Shown here piece after piece: positions 1,599 through 23,221 of a stretch of 24,961 nt of DNA. Position 1 is the first letter of the stretch. Each line of letters begins with the position of its first letter. The notes beneath the pieces were generated by a model. That model was not told the DNA's origin, made no database searches, and saw nothing but the letters and a program-made list of their open reading frames with translations. Source of the stretch: a virus. Made by a program: the position numbers and the translations under genes. The stretch lies in UHGV virus genome UHGV-0275691. One strand, written 5' to 3'.

Positions 1599-1609
1599 AG
1601 CGCCTCCCG

Positions 1610-3460: not shown

Positions 3461-3469
3461 AAACATCCC

Positions 3470-4768: not shown

Positions 4769-4788
<20 letters not shown>
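3470..4788 (-). pseudogene. C: Prohead protease/scaffold protein C, disrupted by a 1-nt frameshift near 4450
   Basis: N-terminal 150 residues (ORF 4330-4923 from VTAELRNLPH, GTG start at 4786-4788) and C-terminal 318 residues (ORF 3470-4426) both match lambda C but sit in different frames; the window reads ATTATCGCCGTCTGCAA where I recall lambda having ATTATCGCCCGTCTGCAA. Confidence 0.75.
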
Positions 4789-8469
<3,681 letters not shown>

Positions 8470-8495
<26 letters not shown>

Positions 8496-9015
8496 TCAGC
8501 AACCCCGGTATCAGTTCATCCAGCGCGGCTGCTTTGTTCATGGCTTTGATGATATCCCGTTTCAGGAAATCAACATGTCGGTTTTCCAGTTCCGGAAAAC
8601 GCCGCTGCACCGACAGGGGGATCCCGTCGAGAATACTGGCAATTTCACCTGCGATCCGCGACAGCACGAAAGTACAGAATGCGGTTTCCACCACTTCAGC
8701 GGAGTCTCTGGCATTTTTCAGCTCCTGTGCGTCGGCCTGCGCACGCGTAAGTCGATGGCGTTCGTACTCAATAGTCCCTGGCTGGAGATCTGTCTCGCTG
8801 GCCTGCCGCAGTTCTTCAACTTCCCGGCGCAGCTTTTCGTTCTCAATTTCAGCATCCCTTTCGGCATACCATTTTATGACGGCGGCAGAATCATAAAGCA
8901 CCTCATTACCCTTCCCACCACCCCGCAGAACGGGCATTCCCTGCTCCTGCCAGTTCTGAATGGTACGGATACTCGCGCCGAAAATGTCAGCCAGCTGCTT
9001 TTTGTTGACTTCCAT
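8470..9015 (-). CDS. Nu1: Terminase small subunit Nu1 (181 aa)
   Basis: Full-length match to recalled lambda Nu1; cos lies immediately upstream. Confidence 0.97.
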
Positions 9016-9193
9016 TGTTCATTCCACGGACAAAAACAGAGAAAGGAAACGACAGAGGCCAAAAAGCTCGCTTTCAGCACCTGTCGTTTCCTTTCTTTTC
9101 AGAGGGTATTTTAAATAAAAACATTAAGTTATGACGAAGAAGAACGGAAACGCCTTAAACCGGAAAATTTTCATAAATAGCGAAAACCCGCGA

Positions 9194-9205
9194 GGTCGCC
9201 GCCCC
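9194..9205. other. cos: cosN cohesive-end site (AGGTCGCCGCCC, complement of lambda GGGCGGCGACCT); cosB expected on the Nu1 side at about 9016-9190
   Basis: Exact 12-nt lambda cohesive-end sequence, flanked by sequence resembling lambda left and right ends, directly upstream of Nu1. Confidence 0.85.
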
Positions 9206-9404: not shown

Positions 9405-9637
9405 TGTCAACGAAGAACAGAACCCGCAGAACAACAACCCGCAACATCCGCTTTCCTAACCAAATGATTGAACAAATTAACATCGCTCTTGTTCAAAAAG
9501 GGTCCGGGAATTTCTCAGCCTGGGTCATTGAAGCCTGCCGCCGGAGACTGTGCTCAGAAAAAAGAGTTTCGCCTGAAGCAAACAAAGAAAAGAGTGACAT
9601 TACTGAATTGCTCAGAAAACAGGTTAGACCAGATTGA
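9405..9637 (+). CDS. Small basic protein with a predicted ribbon-helix-helix-like fold (77 aa); cos-proximal ORF that I recall also being present at the lambda right end
   Basis: ORF with N-terminal Arg/Thr-rich stretch followed by a strand-helix-loop-helix pattern (IRFPNQMIEQINIALVQKGSGNFSAWVIEACRRRL); weak RBS; upstream part of the 168-aa track ORF crosses cosN so cannot be coding. Confidence 0.55.
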
Positions 9638-9694
9638 AGCAATCTAGATAATCGTGCAGACTACGCCCCCTCATATCACATGGAAGGTACTACA

Positions 9695-10105
9695 ATGGCT
9701 CAGGTTGCCATTTTTAAACAAATATTCGATAAAGTGCGAAATAATTTAAACTATCACTGGTTTTATTCTGAACTAAAACGTCACAATGTCTCACATTACA
9801 TTTACTATTTAGCCACAGAGAATATTCATCTTGTTCTTGAAAACGATAATACGGTTTTAATAAAAGGACAGGGTAAGGTTGTAAATGTAAGATTTTCAAA
9901 AAATAAATGCCTTATAGAAGCCACCTTAAAAGGATTCAAATCAGGAGAGTTATCATTTTACGAATACAGGAAAAATCTTGCTACAGCAGGGGTTTTCAGA
10001 TGGATTACAAATATCCACGAAAACAAAAGGTATTACTATACCTTTGATAATTCATTACTCTTTACTGAGAACATTCAGAACACTACACAAATATTTCCGC
10101 ACTAA
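9695..10105 (+). CDS. DUF1398-like (YbcV/YdfO-family) prophage protein, 136 aa
   Basis: ATG at 9695 with GAAGG RBS 8 nt upstream; translation resembles recalled E. coli YbcV-family proteins and the equivalent lambda right-end ORF; [13 protein letters not shown] motif. Confidence 0.7.
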
Positions 10106-10783
10106 ATCATAACGTCCGGTTTCTTCCGTGCCAGAACCGGACTCGCTGGCATGATGAAATATGTGTACCCGGTAACCCCGGTGTGCATCGTTTTTGATTA
10201 TTCCCGCACACTCGCGCAGAAGGAGTTCCCCGTCGGGCTACGGTCTCTGTTAATACGGGAACACGGCGACGATACAGCGCATGATGTGTCAGGCTTGAAT
10301 ACCTTTATCCTTTAAAAGGGATATCAGTTAAGTTATCCCGTGTAGGGTATAAGCCATTATCAAAGCCACTCTGTAGGGAATGGCTTTTGTGATGGCATCA
10401 CTTACTCTTTACGCTGCTATCCCACTCATCCCGGAATTTTGATGGGTTATTGAAACCTTCTGCTGACATAACAACTCCTTCAATGTTTGGCTGAAATTAG
10501 GATGTCTTTCCATCAGTCCGCCACCACAAAGAATCTTTTTTGCCATAAGGCAGGAGGTTCATCTTTCAGTGGCTGCCGGTGTTATTTCCCCACTTACTGG
10601 CTTGGGTTGTTTCGTGGTACTGCCGTTAACTGGTGGCGCACAGATTTAGTTAAATCCGTTCTCGCCTGAACTATCTTTTACATACCCGGATTGTGGGGAT
10701 GTAAATCACGGTTTCATTATCAAGCCCACCAGTAGATGGGCTTTGTAATGAAGAGTTGTTATGAAAATTGCTCTAAACAAGCA

Positions 10784-11272
10784 TTAATAGCCATCAGAAG
10801 TAATCGCTACAGATTTCAATCCCTCAATGTCATCCTTGGACAGGGCGAACCATTCACCGTGCTTTCTCTTTGCGGCAAATTTGCGATGAAGCATGTTTTC
10901 AGTTTCTCTTCCACCAGGGATCAGGCACTCAAGCTTCAAGCAGTCTGGTCCAGAGTTGCCAAGCGATTTGATGCGTTGTGGAATGTTGGATGAATACCCA
11001 ATTTTGGTTAGCCCAGTTTTCTTCGATGACAAAACGTATACCTGAGGAGGTTCTTTTCTCTGGTCTTCCATTACACGTCTCATTGTTGCCATAAGTCCGC
11101 CGTGCATCAGCATTTCAACAAAGAACGCTGACCGAACACCTGACGACTTAAGCATGCCAGAAAATTCACTTGCCAATTCCATTAACTCTGCGATGTTTTC
11201 AGGAACTTTTTGGCAGTTATCTTCCTTGTATAAGGAAATCATTCTTTGAAGCTTTTCTTCTAATTGGTTCAT
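10784..11272 (-). CDS. T5orf172 (GIY-YIG-like) domain protein with an uncharacterised helical N-terminal domain, 162 aa
   Basis: C-terminal region VYVLSS..GLTKIGYSSNIPQRIKSL...ENMLHRKFAAKRKHGEWFAL fits the T5orf172/GIY-YIG-like motif order (YxL, KIGxS, R, E, GEWF); ATG at 11270-11272; the track start at 11308 is a GTG. Confidence 0.65.
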   Translation of the reverse strand: MNQLEEKLQRMISLYKEDNCQKVPENIAELMELASEFSGMLKSSGVRSAFFVEMLMHGGLMATMRRVMEDQRKEPPQVYVLSSKKTGLTKIGYSSNIPQRIKSLGNSGPDCLKLECLIPGGRETENMLHRKFAAKRKHGEWFALSKDDIEGLKSVAITSDGY

Positions 11273-11421
11273 AGCGTCTTTACCTTTTAGAAAGTGAGCC
11301 TGTCTCACAGAAAAGCCGCCCCGAGATGGTCGCCACCATATACGGCAGTTCTCAGGCTCAACTTTCTGAAAGGCTCGGGTGATGTAATATGCGCGTGAGA
11401 TGCGCTGTGAAATTCAGATGT

Positions 11422-11445
11422 AAAAAAAGCCCCGCATCGCGAGGC
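11422..11445 (-). terminator. Rho-independent terminator downstream of Rz (minus-strand RNA GCCUCGC-GAU-GCGGGGC then U7)
   Basis: 7-bp stem with one G-U pair followed by a seven-residue U tract, 30 nt after the Rz stop. Confidence 0.7.
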
Positions 11446-11477
11446 TCATTAAATGGACTTTGTGATTTGCAAAAAAA

Positions 11478-11951
11478 TTATTTCAGGCATTGCGTCCTGA
11501 TGTATTCCTGCAGGTAGTTAACCTGCGCGGTTATCTTGTCGATTCCACTTCGGAGACGGTAATAATTGAGTTCAGCATCTGCTGTAAGTCTTGGGCTTTC
11601 TCCATCGCCCATGCCGCTGGCTCCGGTCGTTGACTTTGCACAGGTGGCGGCGACTTGCAGGCGCTTACGCCCAGCAGAAACATCAGCACGGAGACTTTCG
11701 ATAGTCGCGTTAGCATCAGCAAGCTCCTTTGTGTATCTTGCGTCGAGTTCTGCTACATCACGTTGACGCTTCCGCATGTCAGCGATGGTGGCGTTCGCCT
11801 TCTCCAGTTCACTGGCCTTGTTATCGCGCTGCTCTTTGTAGGCGATTGCGTTATCACGGTAATGATTAACAGCCCATGACAGGCAGACGATGATGCAGAT
11901 AACCAGAGCATAAATAATCGCGGCGACTCTGCTCACTGATCTATCCCCCAA
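11478..11951 (-). CDS. Rz: Inner-membrane spanin Rz (i-spanin)
   Basis: N-terminal half matches lambda Rz ([22 protein letters not shown]); position after R; embedded Rz1 frame. Confidence 0.9.
11531..11722 (-). CDS. Rz1: Outer-membrane lipoprotein spanin Rz1 (o-spanin), embedded in Rz in the +1 frame
   Basis: Embedded ORF with signal peptide, lipobox-like VSAC and a Pro-rich mature region (KSPPPVQ), typical of Rz1. Confidence 0.7.
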
Positions 11952-12466
11952 CAGGCTAATGCGCTTTCCTGGTCACGACGAATAACCTGTCCATAGCAGT
12001 TATTTGAACGTATGCGGCAATCGCGCCCACCATCTTTTATCCACCAGCGAATCGCCTCGCATGCACCTTTACGATCACCGGCATTCAGCCGCTTATAAAA
12101 CGTCGACGGGAAACACTTACCGGGGCCAATGTTATAGGGACAAAATGACGCGATACCCGCTTTCTGTGGTTCGGTCAGTGGCACTTTAATATTGCGCTCC
12201 ACCCATGCCAGCGCCTTATCCCGTTCAATGGCGTTAACCTGGTCGCATTTTTCCTTCGACAGTTTCATACCGGGAAAAACGGGTTTTCCATCCACCACCG
12301 TGGCACCCCGACAGATGGTCCAGATGCCGGAACCATCGCGGTATGCCGTTGTGTGGTTACCTTCTTTTTCATCCAGAAACTGGTCGAGAATATCAGGCGC
12401 AGGCGCACCGACGGCAATCAGTGCCAGAACGGCAGCCGACAGGCCGTATCTGATTTTTGCGTTCAT
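11933..12466 (-). CDS. R: Endolysin R, T4-type lysozyme with N-terminal signal-anchor-release (SAR) domain
   Basis: 177 aa; hydrophobic N-terminus ([13 protein letters not shown]) followed by an [17 protein letters not shown] catalytic region, similar to phage 21 / Stx-phage SAR endolysins. Confidence 0.92.
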
Positions 12467-12571
12467 GGATATTTATCAGGATTTATCGGTTTCTGAACCC
12501 TGGATATGTTTATCTGTCCCGGCCTGTTGAATCAGGCAAGGAATAGTTAAATACAATAGAGAGGATTGTTT

Positions 12572-12844
12572 ATGGACAATAGCACCATTTCTCTACAGGA
12601 GTTGCTCGACTGCATTTCCAGGCTTCGGGATGATGTAAATGCCCTTACTGTCGCATTTTCATATCTGGCATTCTCAATTCCCAAGGAACAAATGCAACCA
12701 ACACTGGCATCGCTCCAGCTTGAATCACTCAACCCCAAATGGTCCCAGCAACAACAAAATTCTTTCAAGTGGCTGGCGGTATTACTGGAAGAAAAATATG
12801 CTGGTGAAATTACCATTTCGGCGGAGTCTTCAGAGAACCAGTAA
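12572..12844 (+). CDS. Hypothetical acidic 90-aa protein encoded antisense to the lysis operon, between the YdfR-like gene and R
   Basis: ATG at 12572 with GAGAGGA Shine-Dalgarno 6 nt upstream; candidate sigma70 promoter TTGAAT-N15-TAAATA upstream; no similarity I can recognise. Confidence 0.45.
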   Translation: MDNSTISLQELLDCISRLRDDVNALTVAFSYLAFSIPKEQMQPTLASLQLESLNPKWSQQQQNSFKWLAVLLEEKYAGEITISAESSENQ

Positions 12845-13154
12845 TTCTTCCCGGTAGCTTTCCTTTGTAGGTTATCCACACATTCTGCGCCTCTAAAATT
12901 ATGGGGCGCTTTTCCGGCGACAGCTCATCCCCTTCACATAACCCGGCAGCAACATCCAGGAAGACCTGTCTGATGCTCCTTCTGGCTGCTGCCTCATAAA
13001 ACTCCAGCGCGGCACCTTCAACACGGTCCAGCGAGATGTCCAGGTCAAAAATTTCACCGTCAAAGCGTTTTTTGTCCCGTAACGCTAAAGTTACCGTAAC
13101 TTTATTCTCAAAATTGCGGATCCCTTTCACAATCAGTTCATAGTTTTGAGTCAT
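12810..13154 (-). CDS. Small ORF between holin and endolysin at the position of YdfR (DUF1327) in Qin-type prophages
   Basis: Starts 4 nt after the S stop; N-terminus MTQNYELIVKGIRNFENKVTVT resembles recalled YdfR-family N-termini; C-terminus diverges and overlaps the antisense ORF. Confidence 0.6.
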   Translation of the reverse strand: MTQNYELIVKGIRNFENKVTVTLALRDKKRFDGEIFDLDISLDRVEGAALEFYEAAARRSIRQVFLDVAAGLCEGDELSPEKRPIILEAQNVWITYKGKLPGRITGSLKTPPKW

Positions 13155-13158
13155 TGAA

Positions 13159-13374
13159 TTACTCTCCCCGTGCAGCCTTACGCTTGTCTTCTTTAATCTT
13201 GAAATAAAGGTTTGTCAGGTACGTCAGCAGGCCAAATACCAGGCTACCCAGCACTCCAATTGCCGCCCACTGTGAGGGCGTGACTTTATCTAGCAGCTGT
13301 AAAAACCAGTACCCGGCACTACCTGCTGAGGTGCCATAGGCGACACCCGTTGTTAACTTATCCATGGATTGCAT
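13159..13374 (-). CDS. S: Holin S, phage 21 pinholin type (71 aa) with dual-start motif M-Q-S-M
   Basis: Near-identical to recalled S21/EssD-type holins; GAGGTGGGG RBS; Met1 and Met4 give the holin/antiholin dual start. Confidence 0.93.
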
Positions 13375-13486
13375 AACCCCACCTCGCAGACAAAGCGGGT
13401 GTAAATTGAGGGAATACTACGAAACGTAACAGACTCGGAGTCAGTGAATAACTCAGGTATTGGGTTATCAGCTAATATCGAGACTC

Positions 13487-13519
13487 AAAAAATGGAAAAA
13501 CCCGCTCGACGGCGGGTTT
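13487..13519 (-). terminator. Rho-independent terminator on the minus strand, about 115 nt upstream of S (AAACCCGC-loop-GCGGGUUU then UUUUUCCAUUUUUU)
   Basis: 8-bp GC-rich stem with 6-nt loop followed by a long U tract on the late-operon strand; candidate tR'-like terminator. Confidence 0.65.
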
Positions 13520-13947
13520 AAGCTGTGTGACGAAGTAACCACTCTTAACAGCATAACCAATTTTTTACGTACGTAAACCACTAAATGATATTTGCGAGAA
13601 TGCTACCGAGTATTGAAAACACCACTACAAATACATAAGCAAATCTCAACAAATAACCAACAAATAATTTCCAGCGTTATTTTTAGCCAATTTAAATTGA
13701 ACCTTCAAATTATAGAGCACTTATAAATAACAGCCATTAATATAAATTGGCTAATAGATTTATTTTTATTCAGCCAAGAGCCATGAATAGGATTCGATAG
13801 AAAAAAGTTCAGATAAAAATAGAGATCTACTTCACAAATTAAACGAGAAACCAAAACTTACATCTTGAAATAATCACATTGATTAGATGAATATTTATCG
13901 CGCAGTGACATCATTTTTTAATAATAGTTCAAAAAAAAGGGCTCACG

Positions 13948-15030
13948 ATGAAAAAATTAACAGTGGCAATTTCTGCTGTAGCTGCATCAGTACTGATGGC
14001 GATGTCTGCTCAGGCAGCTGAAATTTATAATAAAGACAGTAACAAGCTGGATCTGTACGGGAAAGTTAATGCTAAGCACTACTTCTCCTCTAATGATGCA
14101 GATGATGGTGATACTACTTATGCCCGTCTTGGCTTCAAAGGTGAAACCCAAATCAACGATCAACTGACTGGTTTCGGTCAGTGGGAATATGAATTCAAAG
14201 GCAACCGCGCTGAATCTCAAGGTTCTTCCAAAGACAAAACCCGTCTTGCATTTGCAGGCCTGAAATTTGGTGATTACGGCTCAATCGATTACGGCCGTAA
14301 CTACGGTGTAGCATACGACATCGGTGCGTGGACTGACGTCCTGCCAGAATTCGGTGGTGATACCTGGACCCAAACAGATGTGTTCATGACTGGTCGCACT
14401 ACTGGTGTTGCAACTTATCGTAACAACGACTTCTTTGGTCTGGTCGATGGCCTGAACTTTGCTGCTCAGTATCAGGGTAAAAATGACCGCACTGACGTAA
14501 CTGAAGCCAATGGTGATGGTTTCGGTTTCTCCACTACTTATGAGTATGAAGGATTCGGCGTGGGTGCAACCTATGCTAAATCAGATCGCACTGACGGTCA
14601 GGTCGCCTATGGTAAGAGCAAATTCAATGCCTCCGGCAAAAATGCGGAAGTATGGGCTGCAGGCCTGAAATATGATGCGAACAATATCTATCTGGCTACC
14701 ACATATTCTGAAACTCAGAATATGACCGTTTTTGGTAATAACCATATTGCAAACAAAGCACAAAACTTTGAAGCAGTAGCACAATATCAGTTTGACTTCG
14801 GTCTGCGCCCATCTGTTGCTTACCTTCAGTCAAAAGGTAAAGACCTTGGTGTTCATGGTGACCGAGACTTAGTCAAGTATGTCGATGTCGGTGCTACTTA
14901 CTACTTTAATAAAAACATGTCCACTTTTGTTGATTACAAAATCAACTTAATTGACGATAGTAAGTTTACCAAAACAGCTGGTATTGATACTGATGACATC
15001 GTTGCTGTAGGTCTGGTTTACCAGTTCTAA
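13948..15030 (+). CDS. nmpC: Phage-encoded OmpC/OmpF-family general porin (NmpC/Lc-like), 360 aa
   Basis: Signal peptide ending AQA/AE, conserved porin N-terminus ([17 protein letters not shown]) and C-terminal YQF; located between Q and S on the strand opposite the late genes, as for nmpC in DLP12 and lc in PA-2. Confidence 0.93.
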
Positions 15031-15167
15031 TCTGATTACGAAAAAGATATGTTGCGGGAGGCGTTGCCTCCCCAACATATAAGTGGCTCCCTCAAGCCAC
15101 TTCCTTTAGAAGCACAACCTTGCTTCTAACTATATAAACCTTCTGTTATATATTACCCTTTATTTTT

Positions 15168-15192
15168 GGGGGCGTCTCAACGCCCCATTTTT
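15168..15192 (+). terminator. Rho-independent terminator downstream of the porin gene (GGGGGCG-loop-CGCCCC then TTTTT)
   Basis: GC-rich hairpin followed by T tract on the plus strand; two further hairpins at about 15053-15072 and 15081-15102. Confidence 0.65.
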
Positions 15193-15219
15193 AATAATTT
15201 TTAGTAAACAATTGGCATA

Positions 15220-15603
15220 TTAATTAGAGTTATTAACAACGATATCCATCTCTAACCGGATATCTAATGCCATTAACATCCCTTCAATTATGCCCTCAGC
15301 CTTTTGTAACCTTTTCCCGATATAACCATCAGAGCAGCAATGCTTACCTGCCAGTGACATGAATGTCATACCGACTACATAATAATCTACTAATAAATCG
15401 TGCAAATCGCTGTTGTTCTTTTTCAGACGGGCCATGCACCCGCAAATGATCATCGCGTCATCGTCACAACATTGCGGGCGAGATTTTACTTTTGAAGGAA
15501 TTAATCCCTTAAAACCGGCGGCAATGGACGACCAGGTCACATCTTCATGATTATTAGCCGCCCACGCTCCCCAACGCTCAAGAACCATCTGAATATCACG
15601 CAT
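15220..15603 (-). CDS. Q: Late-gene antiterminator Q, DLP12 QuuD type (127 aa)
   Basis: Translation from [12 protein letters not shown] matches recalled QuuD; ATG at 15601-15603 with GGAG RBS; the track start is an upstream TTG. Confidence 0.85.
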
Positions 15604-15688
15604 CAACTTACTCCACAAAACTCAGACCAGAACGCCAATTACAAGCAAAAATCAACAAAACAGTATTAGTTGATTGTTATCTCTGACT

Positions 15689-15829
15689 TCATACTCCTGC
15701 TCCTGTCAGTGTTTTGGCGTAATTCTTCAGTATTCGGTAATCGGTCAAAACAGAGCCGGGGAAACGATATAAGCGCAGACGCCCCCAGCGGTGGCGAAGA
15801 AGTTCTGCCATATTAAACTCAAACATCAT
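15689..15829 (-). CDS. ylcG: Small protein YlcG (46 aa)
   Basis: Manual translation [46 protein letters not shown] matches recalled DLP12 YlcG; ATGA overlap with the rusA stop; below the ORF-track length cutoff. Confidence 0.8.
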
Positions 15830-16188
15830 TCATTCCCCATTTCGGTGATGGTCAGTTCCAGCCTCCCACCTTTGGTAACAGGCATCTTCACAACGCGGTA
15901 ATCAACGACCTGAGCATCATCCAGCCAGAAACCTGCTTTAGTGAGTGCGTCAAAAGCGGCTTTTTGCAGATTATCCAGGTCACGGCGACGGCGATCCGGC
16001 ATGTGGCACTCAATGCGGATTTTCACAGGCATAGCCAGGCCGATATCCAGCATTGCGTTTTTAATGATTCGGGCGACGTTATCGCGGTATGCCTGCCCCT
16101 CTGCGCTGACGTGCGTGCGCCCGCGATTATGGCGGTAATAGCGATTATTGCTCGGAGGCCAGGGTAATGTGATGCTGTAGGTATTCAC
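15826..16188 (-). CDS. rusA: Holliday junction resolvase RusA (120 aa)
   Basis: Full-length match to recalled E. coli RusA; GTG start codon. Confidence 0.95.
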
Positions 16189-16313
16189 GCCTTAATAACC
16201 CCCTCTTTCAGCCAGATAACCTGTGTTCTCGCCATACCTTCCAGCGCGCATTCTTTTGCATATGCAGCATCGACTTGCTTGGCATGCCCTTTACCGGCAA
16301 TCTTCTGTATGCG
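16185..16313 (-). pseudogene. ybcO: Remnant of a ybcO-like (DUF1364) gene: only the C-terminal part is present, with no start codon
   Basis: Open frame ending ...[29 protein letters not shown] matches the recalled YbcO C-terminus; an in-frame stop lies 42 codons upstream and there is no room for the N-terminal two-thirds. Confidence 0.5.
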
Positions 16314-16915: not shown

Positions 16916-17439
16916 GCCGCCCTCCTGACGCCCTGCCCGATCGCCATCAATGCCGCTTTGGATACGGTAGTAAACATCCGTCGAGGACTGATGAACGGTC
17001 GCCAAATCAGCAGCATGGAGCCTTTGCTGTTTCCCTTCTTCTCCAGCCCTGTCGATGGTTCGATAAAATTAATCCGTCCATCAGTGATAATGCGAACTTC
17101 GTCGACACTCTCCAGAGCCTTGCTGAACCATCCGACTGACATATCCTCTGGCACAAGCATAACTACCGTCTGTCGCTGTTGTATGCACTGCTCGGCGGCT
17201 TTTTCCACCCACGGCCTGATATTGCTGTACGGTGGGTTATTCCAGATTGCACCGTGGCTTATCCACTCAGAATTTAGCGCGTCGTCGGCCTCAGTTAACC
17301 AGTGAGCGCACAGAGCATTTTTGTCGCTCGCTGCCGAATCCAGCCAGAATCCAAACTCAATATCCAGTGCATCAAAAAGCCAAAGCGGCGTTTGCCAGCA
17401 GTCCTTGTCGTGTGCTGGCGTATTTGATTTGATAGTCAT
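16912..17439 (-). CDS. Phage Dam-like DNA N6-adenine methyltransferase (175 aa)
   Basis: NPPYS (DPPY-type motif IV); start at ATG 17437-17439 with GGAGA RBS and ATGA overlap with the ninB stop; occupies the slot that holds ninC in lambda. Confidence 0.8.
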
Positions 17440-17876
17440 GCAGCCCGATCTCCCCATCGCGCTTTCCATTCGAGAGCCAGTCGCGCTTCGTCTGACCACT
17501 TAACGCCACGCTCTGTACCGAATGCCTGTATAAGCTCTAATAGCTCCGCAAATTCGTTTACACGCATCCTGCTGGTTGACTGGCCTATTACCACAAAGCC
17601 ATTCCCGGCAAGGTTAGGAACAACATCCTGCTGCTTTAATGCTGCGGTAAACACACACTTCCAGCTTTCTGCATCCAGCCAGCGACCATGCCATTCAACC
17701 TGACGAGAGACGTCACCAAGGCAAGCCCAAAGCTTTCGATTCTGGTCTAAGCTGCGGTTGCGTTCCTGAATGGTTACTACGATTGGTTTGGTTGGGTCTG
17801 GAAGGATTTGCTGTACTGCGTGAATAGCGTTTTGCTGATGTGCTGGAGATCGAATTTCAAAGGTTAGTTTTTTCAT
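17436..17876 (-). CDS. ninB: Recombination protein NinB (Orf), 146 aa
   Basis: Matches recalled lambda NinB from MKKLTFEIRS. Confidence 0.93.
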   Translation of the reverse strand: MKKLTFEIRSPAHQQNAIHAVQQILPDPTKPIVVTIQERNRSLDQNRKLWACLGDVSRQVEWHGRWLDAESWKCVFTAALKQQDVVPNLAGNGFVVIGQSTSRMRVNEFAELLELIQAFGTERGVKWSDEARLALEWKARWGDRAA

Positions 17877-17949
17877 GACTTCCCTCTCCCCCAAATAAAA
17901 AGGCCTGCGATTACCAGCAGGCCTGTTATTAGCTCAGTAATGTAGATGG

Positions 17950-18240
17950 TCATCTTTTAACTCCATATACCGCCAATACCCGTTTCATCGCGGCACTCTG
18001 GCGACACTCCTTAAAAATCAGGTTCGTGCTCATCTTTCCTTCCCGTTCTTCCCTGGTAGCAAACCGGTAATACACCGTTCGCCAGACCTTACCTTCGATA
18101 ACCAGAAGACCTGCCCGTGCCATTTTAGCCGCGGCCTGATTTATGCTGGTTACTGTTGCGCCTGTTAGCGCGGCAACGTCCGGCGCACAGAAGCTATTAT
18201 GCGTCCCCAGGTAATGAATAATTGCCTCTTTGCCCGTCAT
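17950..18240 (-). CDS. ren: Ren protein (96 aa)
   Basis: Near-identical to recalled lambda Ren. Confidence 0.93.
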   Translation of the reverse strand: MTGKEAIIHYLGTHNSFCAPDVAALTGATVTSINQAAAKMARAGLLVIEGKVWRTVYYRFATREEREGKMSTNLIFKECRQSAAMKRVLAVYGVKR

Positions 18241-18938
18241 ACACTTGCTCCTTTCAGTCCGAACTTAGCTTTAATTTCTGCGATCTTCGCCAGAGCCTGT
18301 GCACGATTTAGAGGTCTACCGCCCATAACAGGAAGTTGTTTTACTGGTTCAGGTATCGTCTCACCACGGTTAATTCGCGCTGTCATACAGGTCAGTTCAT
18401 CGGCAGCCTTGCGCCGTAATTCCGCATCAGTAAGCGCATTGGCCCGCATGTTCTGATACAGGTTGGTAACCAGCCAGTAGTGCGCGTTTGATTTCCACGG
18501 ATAAGACTCCGCATCCGGATACAGGCCTCGCTTCCGGCAATACTCGTAAACCATATCAACCAGCTCGCTGACGTTTGGCAGTCCGGCGATAACGGATGCT
18601 TCTTCCCGGCACCATGCAACAAACTGCCCGGGTGATGGCAGAAATGGTCGATTCTGCCGACGGGCTACGCGCATTCCTGCGTTAACCTGTTCCATTGTGG
18701 TGATCCCGTTTTCCCGGAAAGCCAGAACCCACTGGCGGCGGATTTCGTTCAGTTCGTTCTGGTCACGGTTAGCCAGACTCGCCGGGAAAGTTGCCAGTAA
18801 CTGGCTGAACACACCGTTGATGATCTGCGCTACCTGCTGTACCTGTGGCTTTTCGTCGTACTGTTCCGGCATGTTGTTGGCGATCCGACGCATCTGCTCA
18901 CGGTCAAAGTTAACCATCTGTGCGGCGATGTTTTTCAT
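18237..18938 (-). CDS. P: Replication protein P (DnaB loader), 233 aa
   Basis: Full-length match to recalled lambda P. Confidence 0.96.
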   Translation of the reverse strand: MKNIAAQMVNFDREQMRRIANNMPEQYDEKPQVQQVAQIINGVFSQLLATFPASLANRDQNELNEIRRQWVLAFRENGITTMEQVNAGMRVARRQNRPFLPSPGQFVAWCREEASVIAGLPNVSELVDMVYEYCRKRGLYPDAESYPWKSNAHYWLVTNLYQNMRANALTDAELRRKAADELTCMTARINRGETIPEPVKQLPVMGGRPLNRAQALAKIAEIKAKFGLKGASV

Positions 18939-19834
18939 AGATCCACCCCGTAAATCCAGTCAGTGTTTGTCAGGTCGAGTTTTGGTTTTCCGGCTGTCAC
19001 GCCAGCCTGTTGCTTGTTACGGTTGATTTCGAGCTGGGTCCACTTGTCGCGGAGTTTGGCCGGACTCAGCACGTTACCGGACCAGAAGTTGTCCTGGCAG
19101 GCCCAGCGGAAAAGCACACACATATCGCGGTGGTTACGTCCGTCACGTTCACGCATCAGGCGGATATCGTTAGCCCACCCAGCAAAATTCGGTTTTCTGG
19201 CTGATGGCGCGATGGTCTTCACCATGTCAAACATCCACTCTGCGGCGGTCAGGTCTTCTGCTGTTCCCCACTTACTGCCGCTCTGAATTGCAGCATCCGG
19301 TTTAACCACAGAAAGATCGTTTTCTGGCTGGTCAGAGGATTCGCCAGAATTCTCGGACGAATAATCTTTTCTTTTTTCTTTTGTAATAGTGTCTTTTGTG
19401 TCCCCCTGTTTTGAGGGATAGCAATCCCCCAATTTGAGGGATGTTTTATCCCTCGTTTTAGGGGATTTTCCCTCGTTTTGAGGGATACACCATTCTGAGA
19501 TGTTTTTATTTGGTCCAAACATGCCGCCTTGCTGCTTGATAATATTCATTCTGACGAGTTCTAACTTGGCTTCATTGCACCGTTTGACAGGTAACTTTGT
19601 AATCTCGCTAAGTTGAGAATCGGTGATTCTGTCCATTGGTTTATTCCACCCATAGGTTTTACGCAGAATGGCAAGCAGCACTTTAAACTGTCGCTTGGTC
19701 AGATCTGCGCCTGAATAAGCCTCAAGCAGCATATTTGATAGTCTGGCGTAACCATCATCGAGATCTGCCACATTACGCTCCTGTCCGGTAAAGTTACCTC
19801 TGCCGAAGTTGAGTATTTTTGCTGTATTTGTCAT
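18935..19834 (-). CDS. O: Replication initiator protein O (299 aa)
   Basis: Matches recalled lambda O from MTNTAKILNF; contains ori iterons. Confidence 0.95.
   Translation of the reverse strand: MTNTAKILNFGRGNFTGQERNVADLDDGYARLSNMLLEAYSGADLTKRQFKVLLAILRKTYGWNKPMDRITDSQLSEITKLPVKRCNEAKLELVRMNIIKQQGGMFGPNKNISEWCIPQNEGKSPKTRDKTSLKLGDCYPSKQGDTKDTITKEKRKDYSSENSGESSDQPENDLSVVKPDAAIQSGSKWGTAEDLTAAEWMFDMVKTIAPSARKPNFAGWANDIRLMRERDGRNHRDMCVLFRWACQDNFWSGNVLSPAKLRDKWTQLEINRNKQQAGVTAGKPKLDLTNTDWIYGVDL
19361..19487. repeat. ori: ori-lambda: four about 18-bp iterons (variants of TCCCTCNNTTTGAGGGA) plus adjacent AT-rich region, inside O
   Basis: Four tandem palindrome-like repeats visible at about 19401-19487, followed on the O sense strand by an AT-rich stretch 19361-19399. 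Confidence 0.85.
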
Positions 19835-19868
19835 AATGACTCCTGTGGATTGATCCAGTCTTTCTACA

Positions 19869-20147
19869 TCAGGCCTCAAAACTGTTGCAGCAGTCTTGAG
19901 GCTTTTCTTTTGTCAGCACCATGGCTACTTTCTTTGCTAGCTTTGCTAATTCCTCGTCTTCAACACCCCACTCCAGCACAGCCAGAAGCATGGCCATCTT
20001 TGGGATAAAGCTGTCTTTCCATCGCGAAATTTGCGATTCATTAATCCCTAATGCATCAGCAACCTTTCGCTGACCACGTACAGCAATTCGATTCAGGATG
20101 TTGCTTGTGATTGCATTCGCTTTCTTGCGAGTACTTGTAAGTTGCAT
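19869..20147 (-). CDS. c1: CII-family lysogeny activator (P22 C1-like), 92 aa
   Basis: Start at internal ATG (MQLTSTRKKANAI...); core ...QSQISRWK...IPKMAMLLAVLEWGV shared with lambda CII; position between cro and O. Confidence 0.8.
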   Translation of the reverse strand: MQLTSTRKKANAITSNILNRIAVRGQRKVADALGINESQISRWKDSFIPKMAMLLAVLEWGVEDEELAKLAKKVAMVLTKEKPQDCCNSFEA

Positions 20148-20204
20148 ATGTAAGTATTTCCTTAACAAATAAGAAGTTATACGCACCAACTGATGCGCGT
20201 TGTA

Positions 20205-20249
20205 TTCCCGCATTTCGGCGGGAATAAGGACCATGACTGTTAAAGAGCA
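20205..20249 (-). promoter_or_regulatory. nutR: nutR: boxA (UGCUCUUUAACA) followed by boxB hairpin (CCCGC-CGAAAU-GCGGG) on the rightward (minus-strand) transcript
   Basis: boxA-like sequence directly after the cro stop, followed 14 nt later by a hairpin whose 19-nt core TCCCGCCGAAATGCGGGAA is repeated exactly at nutL. Confidence 0.65.
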
Positions 20250-20255
20250 ATTTGC

Positions 20256-20441
20256 TTATGCCGCTTTGCGATAAGCACTTTCTTGATACTTCAGGGCGCC
20301 AGCTGTAACGACTTCCAGTCGATAGGCGTCTTTCTCTGGGATGACTTCCTTCCACTGAGAGACTGCTGCATCGCTAATGCCTAACGCTTTAGCTACCGCA
20401 CGCTGGGTTCCGAAGTGGTCGATAACATCTTTCTTGTACAT
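20256..20441 (-). CDS. cro: Cro repressor, P22 type (61 aa)
   Basis: Near-identical to recalled P22 Cro (MYKKDVIDHFGTQRAVAKALGISDAAVSQWKE...). Confidence 0.88.
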   Translation of the reverse strand: MYKKDVIDHFGTQRAVAKALGISDAAVSQWKEVIPEKDAYRLEVVTAGALKYQESAYRKAA

Positions 20442-20521
20442 AGACTCGCTCCGAAATTAAAGAACACTTAAATTATCTATCAAAGGAATCTTAAGTCAAG
20501 TTTATTTAAGATGTCTTAACT
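20442..20521. promoter_or_regulatory. OR operator/promoter region: PR on the minus strand (TTGACT-N17-ATAATT, + coordinates 20471-20499) and P22-type operator palindromes (for example TTAAGATGTCTTAA at 20506-20519); PRM presumably adjacent with a leaderless c2 transcript
   Basis: Consensus-like -35/-10 on the cro strand; palindromic TTAAG/CTTAA half-sites between divergent cro and c2. Confidence 0.6.
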
Positions 20522-21172
20522 ATGAATACACAACTGATGGGTGAGCGTATTCGCGCTCGCAGAAAAGAACTTAAGATTAGGCAGGCTGCCCTTGGCAAGA
20601 TGGTTGGCGTGTCTAATGTTGCTATTTCCCAATGGGAGCGTTCTGAAACTGAGCCCAATGGCGAAAACCTATTGGCTTTAGCCAAGGCTTTACAGTGCTC
20701 CCCTGATTACTTGTTGAAAGGAGAAGATAGTCTTTCAAACATTGCCTATCACAGCAGGCATGATCCAAGAGGTTCGTATCCTCTAATTAGTTGGGTAAGC
20801 GCAGGATGTTGGATGGAAGCTGTAGAGCCATATCATAAGCGTGCAATAGATAACTGGTACGATACAACCGTAGATTGTTCAGAAGATTCGTTTTGGCTGG
20901 ACGTAAAGGGTGATTCGATGACGGCTCCAGCCGGTCTTAGCATCCCGGAAGGGATGATAATACTAGTCGATCCTGAAGTAGAACCTCGTAATGGGAAGCT
21001 GGTAGTGGCAAAGCTCGAAGGAGAAAACGAGGCAACTTTCAAGAAGTTAGTTATTGATGCTGGCAGAAGGTTTCTAAAACCACTTAACCCACAATATCCG
21101 ATGATTGAGATCAACGGGAACTGCAAAATCATCGGTGTAGTTGTCGATGCAAAAATAGCAAACCTTCCATAA
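20522..21172 (+). CDS. c2: Prophage repressor, P22 C2 type (216 aa), LexA-like autocleaving C-terminal domain
   Basis: Near-identical to recalled P22 C2 repressor over the full length. Confidence 0.95.
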   Translation: MNTQLMGERIRARRKELKIRQAALGKMVGVSNVAISQWERSETEPNGENLLALAKALQCSPDYLLKGEDSLSNIAYHSRHDPRGSYPLISWVSAGCWMEAVEPYHKRAIDNWYDTTVDCSEDSFWLDVKGDSMTAPAGLSIPEGMIILVDPEVEPRNGKLVVAKLEGENEATFKKLVIDAGRRFLKPLNPQYPMIEINGNCKIIGVVVDAKIANLP

Positions 21173-21193
21173 GGGGCATTCGCCCCTTTTTTT
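21172..21193 (+). terminator. Rho-independent terminator immediately after the repressor gene (AGGGGC-ATTC-GCCCCT then T7)
   Basis: Perfect 6-bp GC stem overlapping the stop codon, followed by a seven-residue T tract. Confidence 0.75.
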
Positions 21194-21261
21194 CTTTCCT
21201 TTAAAAATCAAAGCAAAACTTAAGCTTCGCAACAAAATTTAAGTTTTCTTCAAAAACGCTC

Positions 21262-21299
21262 TTGACCAATAGTTAAAGAAATCTTAAATTTAAGTCATC
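21262..21299 (+). promoter_or_regulatory. pL promoter (TTGACC-N17-TAAATT) overlapped by an OL operator palindrome CTTAAATTTAAG (21288-21299)
   Basis: Consensus-like -35/-10 oriented toward N; perfect 12-bp palindrome with the TTAAG half-site over the -10. Confidence 0.6.
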
Positions 21300-21336
21300 G
21301 GCAGGACGCTGGTAGCCAAACGGAACAGATTGGCAG

Positions 21337-21378
21337 GCTCTTTAACATTGATGGGATTGTCCCGCCGAAATGCGGGAA
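21337..21378 (+). promoter_or_regulatory. nutL: nutL: boxA (GCTCTTTAACA) followed by the boxB hairpin
   Basis: Same 19-nt boxB core as nutR in the opposite orientation, 107 nt upstream of the N start. Confidence 0.65.
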
Positions 21379-21484
21379 CCAAAGAGTAGTTGGCTTTGGG
21401 GTGACGTGAAGTGCAGCTGCACGACGGCAACCGGAAGATAAGCACCCGGCGCGTCACCGCCAAAGTCAATCATCGGAGGTCAAC

Positions 21485-21757
21485 ATGGCAGTAGTCATTA
21501 CATATCTGGCTGACGATAACGCCAGAAATCGCCGCAGAGCACGCAGACAGGCTCAACGTGAGCAGGCAATGCAAGAACAGCGACTGGCGCGAAAAATTGC
21601 GCTAAAGCTCTCTGGTTGCGTCAGAGCAGACAAAGCAGCATCACTCGGAAGCCTTCGCTGCAAGAAGGCAGATGAATGCAGTGGAAGTATTTGCCTGCCA
21701 AACGTAGCCATTTACGCGGCAGGCTACCGGAAATCAAAACAACTGACGGCGAGATGA
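21485..21757 (+). CDS. N: Antitermination protein N (arginine-rich motif), P22 gp24-like, 90 aa
   Basis: GGAGGT RBS; N-terminal arginine-rich motif NARNRRRARRQAQREQ; first gene downstream of pL/nutL; C-terminus resembles recalled P22 gp24. Confidence 0.8.
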   Translation: MAVVITYLADDNARNRRRARRQAQREQAMQEQRLARKIALKLSGCVRADKAASLGSLRCKKADECSGSICLPNVAIYAAGYRKSKQLTAR

Positions 21758-21773
21758 TAAATTAATTTGCTAA

Positions 21774-22355
21774 TTACTTGTTTTTGCCATGCTTATCCTG
21801 AGCGATAAGTTCATCCATAAGACTGTCTTTCTTCCCAGCAAACCTAATGTAGCACTCATTTCTATAGCGTTCCGGGATAACAAAACGGTCGATTTCAGGA
21901 TATCCAGTAGCAGAAGGTACCCGAATAAGAAGCCCTTTTTCGAGCAATGAGATTGCTTCAGGGCTTCCCTTTTCTGTCTTTAGCTGGTTATTAGCGGCTA
22001 CAGCGAATGCCAAATACGCTCTTTCTCCAAGAGTTAACGAATCAAACAAATCTTGCACGTATTTCTCTTCTTTAGATTTGCGCTTCTGAGCAGCGAATAT
22101 CTCAATTCTTTCAGTCACAGCGTGATAAGCGGAATTAACAACGCCGTTAAGCACATAGCTAACGCAAAACAACAGGATGTAATACATCCAGTAATGAGGA
22201 AGGATTTCTGGATTATGCAGGTTTATCCATTCTTTTACGCTTATAGGCATAACAATAATCAATATGATTAGGATGATTAGCATATGAATCAACTGTTTAA
22301 GTGTCATTCCTTGCAGGAAAAAATGCATTAGTTCCTGCCACCATGAGTTGTTCAT
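21774..22355 (-). CDS. sieB: Superinfection exclusion protein SieB (membrane Abi-type protein), 193 aa
   Basis: Two hydrophobic helices (LIHMLIILIILIIVMPI; YWMYYILLFCVSYVL); matches my recollection of P22 SieB; located next to N on the opposite strand, as sieB is in P22 and lambda. Confidence 0.8.
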   Translation of the reverse strand: MNNSWWQELMHFFLQGMTLKQLIHMLIILIILIIVMPISVKEWINLHNPEILPHYWMYYILLFCVSYVLNGVVNSAYHAVTERIEIFAAQKRKSKEEKYVQDLFDSLTLGERAYLAFAVAANNQLKTEKGSPEAISLLEKGLLIRVPSATGYPEIDRFVIPERYRNECYIRFAGKKDSLMDELIAQDKHGKNK

Positions 22356-22569
22356 CGGCGTTTCTCTTTTGCTCTCTGTAGGGGTGAATAGAGTTTATCC
22401 GATTTCTCGCTGTAGGGGTACACGAGAACCACCGACCCTGATGTGGTTAAAAGACAGGCATACTAATAAACACTGCACTGTGTATTCATTCCAACGAGTG
22501 AATACACTGAGCAATGTCGCTCGTAACTAAACAGGAGCCGACTTGTTCTGATTATTGGAAATCTTCTTT

Positions 22570-22597
22570 GCCCTCCAATGTGAGGGCGATTTTTTAT
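22570..22597 (+). terminator. Rho-independent terminator in the leftward operon upstream of ea10 (GCCCTC-loop-GAGGGC then TTTTTT)
   Basis: 6-bp GC stem plus T tract on the plus strand; tL-type terminator expected to be read through by N-modified polymerase. Confidence 0.6.
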
Positions 22598-22615
22598 CTG
22601 TGAGGATATGAATAG

Positions 22616-22984
22616 ATGTCAAACATCAAAAAATACATCATTGATTACGACTGGAAAGCATCAATAGAAATTGAAATCGACCATGACGTAATGACAGAGG
22701 AAAAACTTCACCAGATTAATAATTTCTGGTCAGACTCTGAATACCGACTCAATAAACACGGCTCTGTATTAAATGCTGTATTAATCATGCTGGCGCAACA
22801 TGCTCTGCTTATAGCAATTTCAAGCGACTTAAATGCATATGGTGTTGTGTGTGAGTTCGACTGGAATGATGGAAATGGTCAGGAAGGATGGCCTCCAATG
22901 GATGGTAGCGAAGGAATAAGAATTACCGATATCGATACATCAGGAATATTTGATTCAGATGATATGACTATCAAAGCCGCCTGA
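22616..22984 (+). CDS. ea10: Early protein Ea10 (122 aa)
   Basis: Matches recalled lambda Ea10; position upstream of cIII in the pL operon. Confidence 0.85.
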   Translation: MSNIKKYIIDYDWKASIEIEIDHDVMTEEKLHQINNFWSDSEYRLNKHGSVLNAVLIMLAQHALLIAISSDLNAYGVVCEFDWNDGNGQEGWPPMDGSEGIRITDIDTSGIFDSDDMTIKAA

Positions 22985-23056
22985 GCGCGGCGTTACCGCA
23001 TACCAATAACGCTTCACTCGAGGCGTTTTTCGTTATGTATAAATAAGGAGCACACC

Positions 23057-23221
23057 ATGCAATATGCCATTGCAGGGTGGCCTGTTGCTGGCTGCCCTTC
23101 CGAATCTTTACTTGAACGAATCACCCGTAAATTACGTGACGGATGGAAACGCCTTATCGACATACTTAATCAGCCAGGAGTCCCAAAAAATGGATCAAAC
23201 ACTTATGGCTATCCAGACTAA
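23057..23221 (+). CDS. cIII: CIII (FtsH inhibitor that stabilises CII), 54 aa
   Basis: Manual translation [54 protein letters not shown] matches lambda CIII; AAGGAG RBS; below the ORF-track cutoff. Confidence 0.92.
   Translation: MQYAIAGWPVAGCPSESLLERITRKLRDGWKRLIDILNQPGVPKNGSNTYGYPD

What the first reader, a model, noticed from the sequence alone, without database searches (positions are those of the whole stretch)
19869..21757. P22-type immunity module (c1, cro, c2, N) set into lambda-type replication and recombination genes
The repressor, Cro and CII-like proteins are near-identical to P22 C2, Cro and C1 as I recall them, and the operators carry P22-like TTAAG/CTTAA palindromes. The flanking O, P, ren, ninB and ea10 through exo genes are lambda-type, and the late region is DLP12/phage 21-type. 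Junctions fall at gene boundaries (O/c1 on one side, N/sieB on the other), as expected for modular lambdoid mosaics. This resembles lambda-imm22-type hybrids or natural recombinants.
Basis: partly seen in the sequence, partly recalled or inferred. Interest (0 to 1): 0.45.

Follow-up and report, generated by a model that had tools for sequence, protein, structure and literature searches.

The report
Mosaic phage 21/P22-type immunity region
This is the ordinary lysogeny-control region of a lambda-like prophage of E. coli: a patchwork of already known phage modules, closer to phage 21 and to E. coli P22-like phages than to P22, and found unchanged in dozens of sequenced E. coli genomes.

Summary
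P22-type operators flank the repressor gene.

"P22-type, near-identical" holds only for three proteins. Identity to P22 is 93% (C2), 95% (Cro) and 89% (C1), but the DNA is only 82% identical. The repressor is closer to phage 21 cI (213/216). Cro is identical to that of phages N7 and CUS-3. N is not P22 gp24 (41%). It is the HK620-type N (97%), and both boxB hairpins match those annotated in HK620.

The flanks are lambda-type (97-98%). The left junction lies in the 34-bp c1-O spacer. The right lambda junction is not at N/sieB. sieB is P22-type, and lambda homology resumes at 22465, before ea10.

The module is itself a patchwork of at least six tracts, with breakpoints inside c1 and inside the repressor gene. 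The head genes are lambda-type, not 21-type; only the stretch from rusA and Q through the porin gene to the holin gene is DLP12-like.

The 4-kb region is 100% identical to a prophage at argU in E. coli 3359. It is near-complete (≥80% covered) in 83 complete genomes, at 99.8-100% identity in the 25 listed. This is a natural, already known kind of lambdoid mosaic. Interest is low.

The parts
19835..19868 (.). Spacer between the O start codon (ATG at 19834, - strand) and the c1 stop codon (19869-19871). Left mosaic junction: lambda/21 homology ends at 19859, and P22/HK620 homology starts at 19827.
19871..19911 (+). oop-like antisense terminator: a hairpin (GCCTCAAAACTG...CAGTCTTGAGGC) followed by TTTTCTTTTG. 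It overlaps the 3' end of c1.
   Evidence: Fold of -18.6 kcal/mol. P22 annotates an oop terminator at the matching place. Function is inferred.
19869..20147 (-). c1 (CII-like activator), 92 aa from the ATG at 20147, which is preceded by AAGGA. The 121-aa ORF that reaches 20234 is an artefactual extension that reads through nutR. The 3' end (19827-19950) is P22-like; the 5' two thirds are HK620-like (98% nt).
   Evidence: CUS-3 carries the same 29-aa extension in front of a lambda-type cII.
20101..20114 (+). TTGC-N6-TTGC CII/C1 box of the establishment promoter PRE. It points towards the repressor gene.
   Evidence: P22 and HK620 annotate the C1/cII binding site at the same place.
20207..20248 (-). 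nutR: boxA GCTCTTTAAC (20248-20239) and boxB hairpin CCCGCCGAAATGCGGG (20222-20207).
   Evidence: boxB is identical to the annotated HK620 nutR; fold -12.4 kcal/mol.
20256..20441 (-). cro (61 aa, P22_Cro family). Identity: 100% to N7/CUS-3 Cro, 96.7% to phage 21 Cro, 95.1% to P22 Cro.
   Evidence: PDB 1rzs
20456..20521 (.). OR1 (20456-20473), OR2 (20479-20496) and OR3 (20504-20521). PR runs on the - strand: TTGACT at 20499-20494, 16 nt, GATAAT ending at 20472. OR3 abuts the repressor ATG.
20522..21172 (+). Repressor (216 aa): an HTH_3 N-terminal domain and an S24 self-cleaving C-terminal domain. It has Ala94-Gly95, Ser132 and Lys174. Codons 1 to about 103 are phage-21-like; the rest is N7/CUS-3-like.
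21171..21188 (+). Intrinsic terminator after the repressor gene (tIMM).
21207..21290 (.). OL region: OL1 (21272-21289), OL2 (21237-21254) and a weak OL3 candidate (21207-21225, with a 5-bp spacer). PL runs on the + strand: TTGACC at 21262, 17 nt, TAAATT ending at 21290.
   Evidence: OL3 is inferred from the P22 annotation.
21337..21376 (+). nutL: boxA GCTCTTTAAC (21337-21346) and boxB CCCGCCGAAATGCGGG (21361-21376).
   Evidence: Identical to the annotated HK620 nutL.
21389..21470 (+). Long stem in the N leader. By analogy with the lambda N leader it may be an RNase III site.
   Evidence: Fold with z = -2.4. Function is inferred.
21485..21757 (+). N antiterminator (90 aa), HK620/JEP4/mEp213 type.
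21774..22355 (-). sieB (193 aa), P22/PhiR11_1 type, convergent with N. It belongs to the non-lambda block.
22460..22465 (.). Right mosaic junction. P22/PhiR11_1 homology ends at 22460, and lambda/21 homology resumes at 22465 (lambda 34055, just past ral). ral is absent.

Best explanation
This is the lysis-lysogeny control region of a natural lambda-like prophage of E. coli. It belongs to the phage 21 / P22 immC immunity family, and it was assembled by recombination from modules that are each already known in sequenced phages.

Shown by sequence:
- A 216-aa LexA-type repressor is transcribed divergently from a P22_Cro-family cro.
- Three 18-bp operators lie between them (OR1-3), and two clear plus one weak operator lie downstream of the repressor gene (OL1-3). 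They overlap sigma-70-like PR and PL.
- A CII-family activator gene carries a TTGC-N6-TTGC box.
- boxA and boxB sites follow both PL and PR, and the two boxB hairpins are identical.
- An N-family antiterminator gene and a convergent sieB gene complete the block.

Inferred from the homologous P22, phage 21 and lambda systems:
- In the lysogen, repressor dimers on OR1/OR2 and OL1/OL2 shut off PR and PL.
- RecA-stimulated self-cleavage at Ala94-Gly95, by Ser132 and Lys174, induces the prophage.
- N binds the boxB hairpins and lets transcription read through into c1-O-P on one side and cIII-gam-bet-exo on the other.
- Cro turns off repressor synthesis.
- C1, protected by the lambda-type CIII, fires PRE to establish repression.
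- SieB excludes superinfecting phages.

Predicted specificities: immunity should be that of phage 21 / P22 C2, because the DNA-binding domain and operators are almost unchanged. Antitermination should be that of HK620. The parts that must match each other are of the same type: N with both boxB sites, and repressor and Cro with the operators.
For: - Gene families.
- Repressor: residues 1-68 differ from the crystallised P22 C2 N-terminal domain only at K16E, S54A and D68E. It matches phage 21 cI read in the 216-aa frame at 213/216.
- Operators: the 80-bp OR region differs from phage 21 at 2 positions and from P22 at 4. Operator-pattern matches with 0-1 mismatch occur only at OR and OL.
- PR, PL and tIMM.
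- boxA and boxB at both nut sites are identical to those annotated in HK620. N is 96.7-98.9% identical to HK620/JEP4 N.
- Purifying selection: dN/dS is 0.01-0.05 for the repressor, with synonymous sites near saturation against P22 (dS 1.5).
- Mosaic tracts and junctions.
- Intragenic breakpoint in the repressor gene: 46 consecutive phage-21-type informative sites (20481-20827) inside an N7-type background; max chi-square 46.5, reached by 0 of 2000 permutations.
- Natural occurrence: 100% identity to the prophage at argU/intD in E. coli 3359. ≥80% of 19000-23000 is present in 83 of 5426 complete genomes, and the cro-repressor core in 489 (86 at ≥99%).
Against: - No experiment was done here. Immunity and antitermination specificities are predictions from sequence.
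- I recall that P22 immC and phage 21 share immunity specificity (Botstein and Herskowitz 1974), but I could not find this in the searchable literature.
- OR2 and the OL sites differ at a few positions from both phage 21 and P22. The repressor C-terminal domain, which governs cooperativity, comes from another lineage than the N-terminal domain.
- The prophage may be defective as a phage. Head-protease gene C has a 1-bp deletion, so selection may now act only on immunity and exclusion.
Confidence: 0.9

Rival explanations
1. It is a true P22 immC block (c1, cro, c2 and gene 24) moved as one piece into a lambda backbone, as in laboratory lambda-immP22 hybrids.
For: C2, Cro and C1 are 89-95% identical to the P22 proteins, and the operators are of the P22 type.
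Against: P22 DNA identity is only 82% and stops at 21353, before boxB and N. N is 41% identical to gp24, and boxB differs from the P22 boxB. Every tract has a closer relative in an E. coli phage: phage 21, N7/CUS-3 or HK620. The same sequence sits at argU in natural isolates from humans, poultry, frogs and wastewater.
Confidence: 0.02
2. It is simply the imm21 region of phage 21, as in lambda imm21 or DE3.
For: The repressor matches at 213/216 and Cro at 59/61. The 5' half of cI is 96-100% identical in DNA. The O-P-ren-ninB flank is 98.4% identical to phage 21.
Against: Phage 21 cII is another type (26% identity). The phage 21 N arginine-rich motif and boxB differ. The 3' half of cI and OL are only 74-88% identical to phage 21. 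Phage 21 has no sieB at this place.
Confidence: 0.03
3. The recombinant repressor (phage-21-type N-terminal domain, N7-type C-terminal domain) with its slightly different OR2 and OL sites defines a new immunity specificity, heteroimmune to both phage 21 and P22.
For: The window has private substitutions in OR2 (20478, 20480) and in the OL region (21215-21272). The C-terminal domain comes from a different lineage.
Against: No residue of helices 2-3 of the DNA-binding domain differs from P22 C2 or phage 21 cI. The half-site consensus is kept in all five clear operators. The C-terminal domain differs from phage 21's at only 2 amino acids.
Confidence: 0.05

Closest known systems
Phage 21 immunity region (imm21; OL657228)
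   Same: cI matches at 213/216 aa and Cro at 59/61. The OR region differs at 2 of 80 bp. The layout is the same, with the same lambda-type O-P-ren flank (98.4%).
   Different: The cII type differs (26% identity). The N arginine-rich motif and boxB differ. The 3' half of cI and OL are only 74-88% identical in DNA. Phage 21 has ral but no sieB next to N.
Salmonella phage P22 immC (c1-cro-c2) with gene 24 and sieB (BK000583)
   Same: C2 93%, Cro 95%, C1 89% and SieB 84% identical. The 18-bp operator type is the same. N and sieB are convergent in the same way. The repressor N-terminal domain is almost identical to the solved C2 structures (1adr, 2r1j).
   Different: DNA is only about 82% identical, with synonymous sites near saturation. 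gp24 is 41% identical, and the P22 boxB (GCGCTGACAAAGCGC) differs. The replication genes next to it are lambda O/P, not P22 genes 18 and 12.
E. coli P22-like podophages N7, IME10, CUS-3, JEP4 and Gally
   Same: These are the best overall DNA match to the module (92-93% over up to 94% of it). Cro is identical, the repressor is 96.8% identical, and OL, nutL and the N 5' part are 96-100%.
   Different: The 5' half of the repressor gene is only 66-90% identical (the window carries a phage-21-type tract there). N7 and CUS-3 N have a different C-terminus. CUS-3 has a lambda-type cII. Their replication genes and virion genes are different.
Phage HK620 (AF335538): N, nutL, nutR and cII
   Same: N is 96.7% identical, and both annotated boxB sites are identical. 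The c1 5' part plus PRE and nutR is 98% identical in DNA.
   Different: HK620 has a 434/L-like cI and a lambda-like cro between these flanks. Its cII C-terminus differs, and it has hkaQ/hkaP instead of sieB.
Lambda, PhiR11_1 and the DLP12 cryptic prophage (backbone)
   Same: Lambda head genes, ninB-ren-P-O and ea10-cIII-kil-gam-bet are 97-99% identical. PhiR11_1 covers 79% of the window at 97.6%. The rusA-to-holin stretch is DLP12-like, and the related prophage in strain 3359 sits at the DLP12 site (argU, intD).
   Different: Lambda and PhiR11_1 carry other cro-cI cores. DLP12 of K-12 has lost its immunity region altogether.

Membership tests
P22 C2 / phage 21 cI immunity type (repressor, Cro and operators) | LexA-like repressor with an HTH N-terminal domain of the C2 type and an S24 self-cleaving C-terminal domain | tested here: met
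   Pfam HTH_3 6.4e-17 and Peptidase_S24 6e-31. Residues 1-76 align to PDB 1adr (P22 C2) at 1.8e-39. Ala94-Gly95, Ser132 and Lys174 are present, read from the translation.
P22 C2 / phage 21 cI immunity type (repressor, Cro and operators) | 18-bp operators ATTTAAG-N4-CTTAAAT in tripartite OR and OL that overlap PR, PRM and PL | tested here: met
   Five sites with 0-1 mismatch, found only at OR and OL. The OR region is nearly identical to that of P22, phage 21 and N7. PR and PL overlap OR1 and OL1. OL3 is only a weak candidate.
P22 C2 / phage 21 cI immunity type (repressor, Cro and operators) | Divergent cro of the P22_Cro fold family | tested here: met
   Pfam P22_Cro 8.7e-28. PDB 1rzs at 6e-35. 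95-100% identity to P22, phage 21 and N7 Cro.
P22 C2 / phage 21 cI immunity type (repressor, Cro and operators) | Functional cross-immunity with phage 21 or P22 immC | not testable with these tools
   Needs plating of lambda imm21 or P22 on a lysogen. Only a sequence prediction is available.
Complete P22 early-regulation set (c1, cro, c2, gene 24, P22 nut sites) | Gene 24-type N protein with the P22 boxB | tested here: not met
   N is 41% identical to gp24. boxB is CCCGCCGAAATGCGGG against GCGCTGACAAAGCGC in P22.
Complete phage 21 imm21 set (N21, cI21, cro21, cII21) | Phage-21-type cII and phage-21-type N with its boxB | tested here: not met
   cII 26% and N 46% identical. The phage 21 boxB sequences differ.
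Lambda N-type processive antitermination (HK620 subtype) | N-family protein with an N-terminal arginine-rich motif, plus boxA and a boxB hairpin downstream of both PL and PR | tested here: met
   Pfam N_peptide 2.1e-15. 96.7% identity to HK620 N. boxA and boxB on both sides are identical to the annotated HK620 nut sites, and the hairpins fold at -10.5 and -12.4 kcal/mol.
CII/C1 lysogeny-establishment activators | Phage_CII-family protein with a TTGC-N6-TTGC box at a promoter that points into the repressor gene | tested here: met
   Pfam Phage_CII 4.8e-44 over residues 30-120. TTGCTTGTGATTGC at 20101-20114 on the + strand.
Lambdoid mosaic prophage | Lambda gene order with abrupt changes of closest relative between and within modules | tested here: met
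   Identity profiles against eight references. Breakpoint test in cI.

The most novel reading that the evidence does not exclude
The exchange inside the repressor gene put a phage-21-type DNA-binding domain and linker on an N7/CUS-3-type C-terminal domain. Together with the private changes in OR2 and OL, this could have shifted operator occupancy or cooperativity enough to make the prophage partly or fully heteroimmune to phage 21 and P22. That would be a natural example of immunity change by domain swapping inside one immunity family.
Probability: 0.05. Interest if true: 0.3.

Novelty: already known. Interest (0 to 1): 0.1.

Why it matters
It matters little beyond correct annotation. The window is a clean textbook case of lambdoid modular evolution. 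Parts that must work together stay matched: N with both boxB sites, and the repressor and Cro with the operators. The DNA around and even inside the genes is exchanged.

The practical points are these:
- The immunity should be called phage 21 / P22-family, not P22.
- N should be called HK620-type.
- The 121-aa 'C1' ORF annotated in some phages reads through nutR and is too long.
- This immunity core is common. It occurs in 489 of 5426 complete E. coli genomes, which bears on predicting superinfection immunity among E. coli prophages.

Tried and rejected
- Literature searches for an explicit statement that P22 immC and phage 21 share immunity specificity found nothing usable. The 1978 P22 review is not held. 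That point rests on my memory and on the sequence comparison.
- The svsR sRNA paper that turned up in a search concerns another prophage, at icd, and is unrelated.
- Rfam found nothing in the finding's range. The only hit in the window is Lambda_thermo ahead of cIII. There are no tRNAs.
- The N protein has no solved relative detectable by sequence.
- A laboratory lambda-immP22 hybrid was rejected because P22 DNA is only 82% identical.
- A simple imm21 substitution was rejected because of the cII, N, boxB and sieB types.
- A junction 'inside N' (21676-21691) appears only against phage 21, N7 or CUS-3. Against HK620 and JEP4 the N gene is one piece up to 21753. So I do not claim that N is chimeric in itself.
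- The large protein-database, structure-prediction and metagenome tools were not used. The annotated phage and E. coli collections already answered the question.
Full report
**What is there.** The window is a lambda-like prophage with most genes on the minus strand.
- In the finding's range lie four genes: a CII-family gene (ORF 19869-20234, -), cro (20256-20441, -), a repressor gene (20522-21172, +) and N (21485-21757, +).
- Pfam assigns them to Phage_CII (4.8e-44, residues 30-120 only), P22_Cro (8.7e-28), HTH_3 plus Peptidase_S24 (6e-31) and N_peptide (2.1e-15). The next gene, 21774-22355 (-), is SieB (4.7e-25).
- The 4-kb stretch 19000-23000 is 100% identical to a prophage in E. coli strain 3359. 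That prophage lies next to tRNA-Arg (argU) and intD, which is the DLP12 attachment site.
- 83 of 5426 complete E. coli genomes hold at least 80% of that stretch.

**Control elements.**
- The pattern ANTNAAG-N4-CTTNANT gives 0-1-mismatch hits only at 20456-73, 20479-96, 20504-21 (OR1-3) and at 21237-54, 21272-89 (OL2, OL1). All other hits in the 25 kb have 2 mismatches. None of 100 shuffles reached the observed total.
- A weak OL3 candidate with a 5-bp spacer lies at 21207-21225. This is where P22 annotates OL3.
- Promoter-like sites overlap OR1 and OL1: PR at 20499 to 20472 on the - strand, and PL at 21262 to 21290 on the + strand. A terminator follows the repressor gene at 21171-21188.
- boxA (GCTCTTTAAC) and an identical boxB hairpin (CCCGCCGAAATGCGGG) follow both promoters: 20248-20207 (-) and 21337-21376 (+). 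They equal the nutR and nutL annotated in HK620.
- A TTGC-N6-TTGC box at 20101-20114 (+) marks PRE. A hairpin plus T-run at 19871-19911 (+) corresponds to the oop terminator of P22.
- The real c1 start is the ATG at 20147, which is preceded by AAGGA. The 29-codon extension of the ORF reads through nutR. In CUS-3 the same extension precedes a lambda-type cII, so it belongs to nutR and not to the gene.

**How P22-like is it?**
- Protein identity to P22 is 93.1% (C2), 95.1% (Cro) and 89.1% (C1), but only 41% for N against gp24.
- P22 DNA aligns only over 19827-21353, at 82%.
- Closer relatives exist for every part:
  - Phage 21 cI, read in its full 216-codon frame, differs at 3 residues.
  - N7 and CUS-3 Cro is identical.
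  - HK620, JEP4 and mEp213 N is 96.7-98.9% identical.
- Repressor residues 1-68 differ from the crystallised P22 C2 domain only at positions 16, 54 and 68. The 80-bp OR region differs from phage 21 at 2 positions and from P22 at 4. I therefore predict phage 21 / P22-C2 operator specificity.
- dN/dS for the repressor is 0.01-0.05, with synonymous sites close to saturation against P22 (dS 1.5). This is an old, strongly conserved protein, not a recent transfer from P22.

**Mosaic map**, from blastn against lambda, phage 21, P22, N7, CUS-3, HK620, JEP4, PhiR11_1, DLP12 and an Stx1a phage:

| Window range | Content | Closest reference and identity |
|---|---|---|
| 263-9204 | head and packaging genes | lambda 98%; phage 21 only 64-72% |
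| 13158-16274 | holin, porin, Q, rusA | DLP12 91-99% |
| 17436-19859 | ninB-ren-P-O | lambda 97.4%, phage 21 98.4% |
| 19827-19950 | c1 3' end, oop | P22 86-96% |
| 19950-20248 | c1 5' part, PRE, nutR | HK620 98% |
| 20250-20440 | cro | N7/CUS-3 96-100% |
| about 20434/20481 to 20827/20838 | OR2/OR3, repressor codons 1 to ~103 | phage 21 96-100% |
| 20838-21290 | repressor 3' half, terminator, OL | N7/CUS-3/JEP4 84-98% |
| 21290-21753 | nutL, N | HK620/JEP4 96-100% |
| 21691-22460 | N 3' end, sieB | PhiR11_1 94%, P22 87% |
| 22465 onward | ea10 to bet | lambda 97.8% |

- The switch inside the repressor gene is significant. There are 46 consecutive phage-21-type informative sites; max chi-square is 46.5, and 0 of 2000 permutations reach it.
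- HK620 and Stx1a_10051 share only the c1/nutR flank and the nutL/N flank with the window. They carry other cro-cI cores between them. The core (about 20265-21289) therefore behaves as a cassette inside a shared frame.

**Junctions.**
- Left: lambda homology ends at 19859, inside the 34-bp spacer between the O ATG (19834) and the c1 stop (19869-71). P22 and HK620 homology already starts at 19827, so a short shared stretch bridges the joint.
- Right: the lambda junction is not at N/sieB. sieB is 84% identical to P22 SieB and 23% to lambda SieB. Lambda homology resumes at 22465 (lambda 34055, just past ral), and ral is missing.
- A change of closest relative does occur at the end of N. HK620 homology stops at 21753, and the last 60 bp of N are shared with the PhiR11_1 and P22 type.

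**Mechanism.** The anatomy is that of the lambda/P22 switch. The best-explanation section lists which steps are shown and which are inferred. In brief:
- Repressor bound at OR and OL silences PR and PL.
- RecA-stimulated self-cleavage (Ala94-Gly95, Ser132 and Lys174 are present) induces the prophage.
- HK620-type N acts at the two identical boxB hairpins.
- Cro, C1 at PRE, lambda-type CIII (with the Lambda_thermo element at 23044-23102) and an oop-like antisense RNA set the lysis-lysogeny choice.
- SieB excludes other phages.
- All functional statements are inferences from homology.

**Comparison and novelty.**
- Every tract has a relative of at least 84-100% identity among sequenced phages.
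- The exact sequence is already in RefSeq, annotated as CII family, Cro/CI family, LexA family, N peptide and SieB.
- The cro-repressor core occurs in 489 of 5426 complete E. coli genomes, 86 of them at ≥99%.
- No isolated phage in the collection holds the whole combination. The best, PhiR11_1, covers 79% of the window and lacks this core. Novel combinations are the rule in lambdoid phages, so this is not remarkable.
- Verdict: a real feature, but ordinary and already known.

**Limits.** I recall from Botstein and Herskowitz (1974) that P22 immC and phage 21 are co-immune, but I could not verify this in the library.

Noticed in passing
window 1-483: The first 262 bases consist only of perfect copies of 307-483, within tail genes U and V. 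1-94 is the reverse complement of 390-483. 95-177 is a direct copy of 307-389. 178-262 is the reverse complement of 350-434. In E. coli 3359 the prophage runs on normally into V, G, T and H. This looks like a contig-end assembly artefact.
   Followed up: partly
window 4455: There is a 1-bp deletion (GGG to GG) relative to lambda 4752 and to PhiR11_1, in head protease/scaffold gene C. It splits the gene into ORFs 3470-4426 and 4330-4923. The same gene is flagged 'frameshifted' in strain 3359. The prophage may be unable to make heads.
   Followed up: partly
window 13948-15030: An intact 360-aa NmpC/OmpD-type porin gene lies between Q and the holin gene. Its counterpart is split by IS5 in K-12 DLP12 and by IS1 in strain 3359, which also has an IS66-family insertion next to the holin gene.
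   Followed up: partly
window 9567-13157: The region from the lysis genes to cos matches neither lambda, phage 21 nor DLP12 well. 11273-13400 is 99.9% identical to phage Chlobot. It holds a GIY-YIG nuclease ORF (10784-11308, -), YlcI/YnfO and DUF1398 genes, and an rrrQ-type lysozyme, according to the RefSeq annotation of the identical prophage.
   Followed up: partly
window 23044-23102: The Rfam Lambda_thermo element (RF01804, 88.5 bits), the cIII translational thermosensor, is intact ahead of the lambda-type cIII.
   Followed up: no
window 20148-20234; L005 5978-6343; L006 5710-6090: The c1/cII genes of phages N7 and CUS-3 are annotated 29 codons too long. The extension is the nutR boxB region read as protein (IPAEMRE corresponds to the boxB hairpin). 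It is the same in front of two unrelated cII types.
   Followed up: yes
L004 34828-34905 (phage 21, OL657228): The phage 21 record annotates cI as 190 aa starting at MVGVSNV. The frame is open 26 codons further upstream to MNTQLMGERI..., which gives the 216-aa protein seen in P22, N7 and this window.
   Followed up: yes
window 21389-21470: A long predicted stem lies in the N leader between nutL and the N start codon (GGCUUUGGGGUGACG...CGUCACCGCCAAAGUC). The 161-nt fold has z = -2.4. It resembles the RNase III-sensitive N-leader hairpin of lambda, as I recall it.
   Followed up: no
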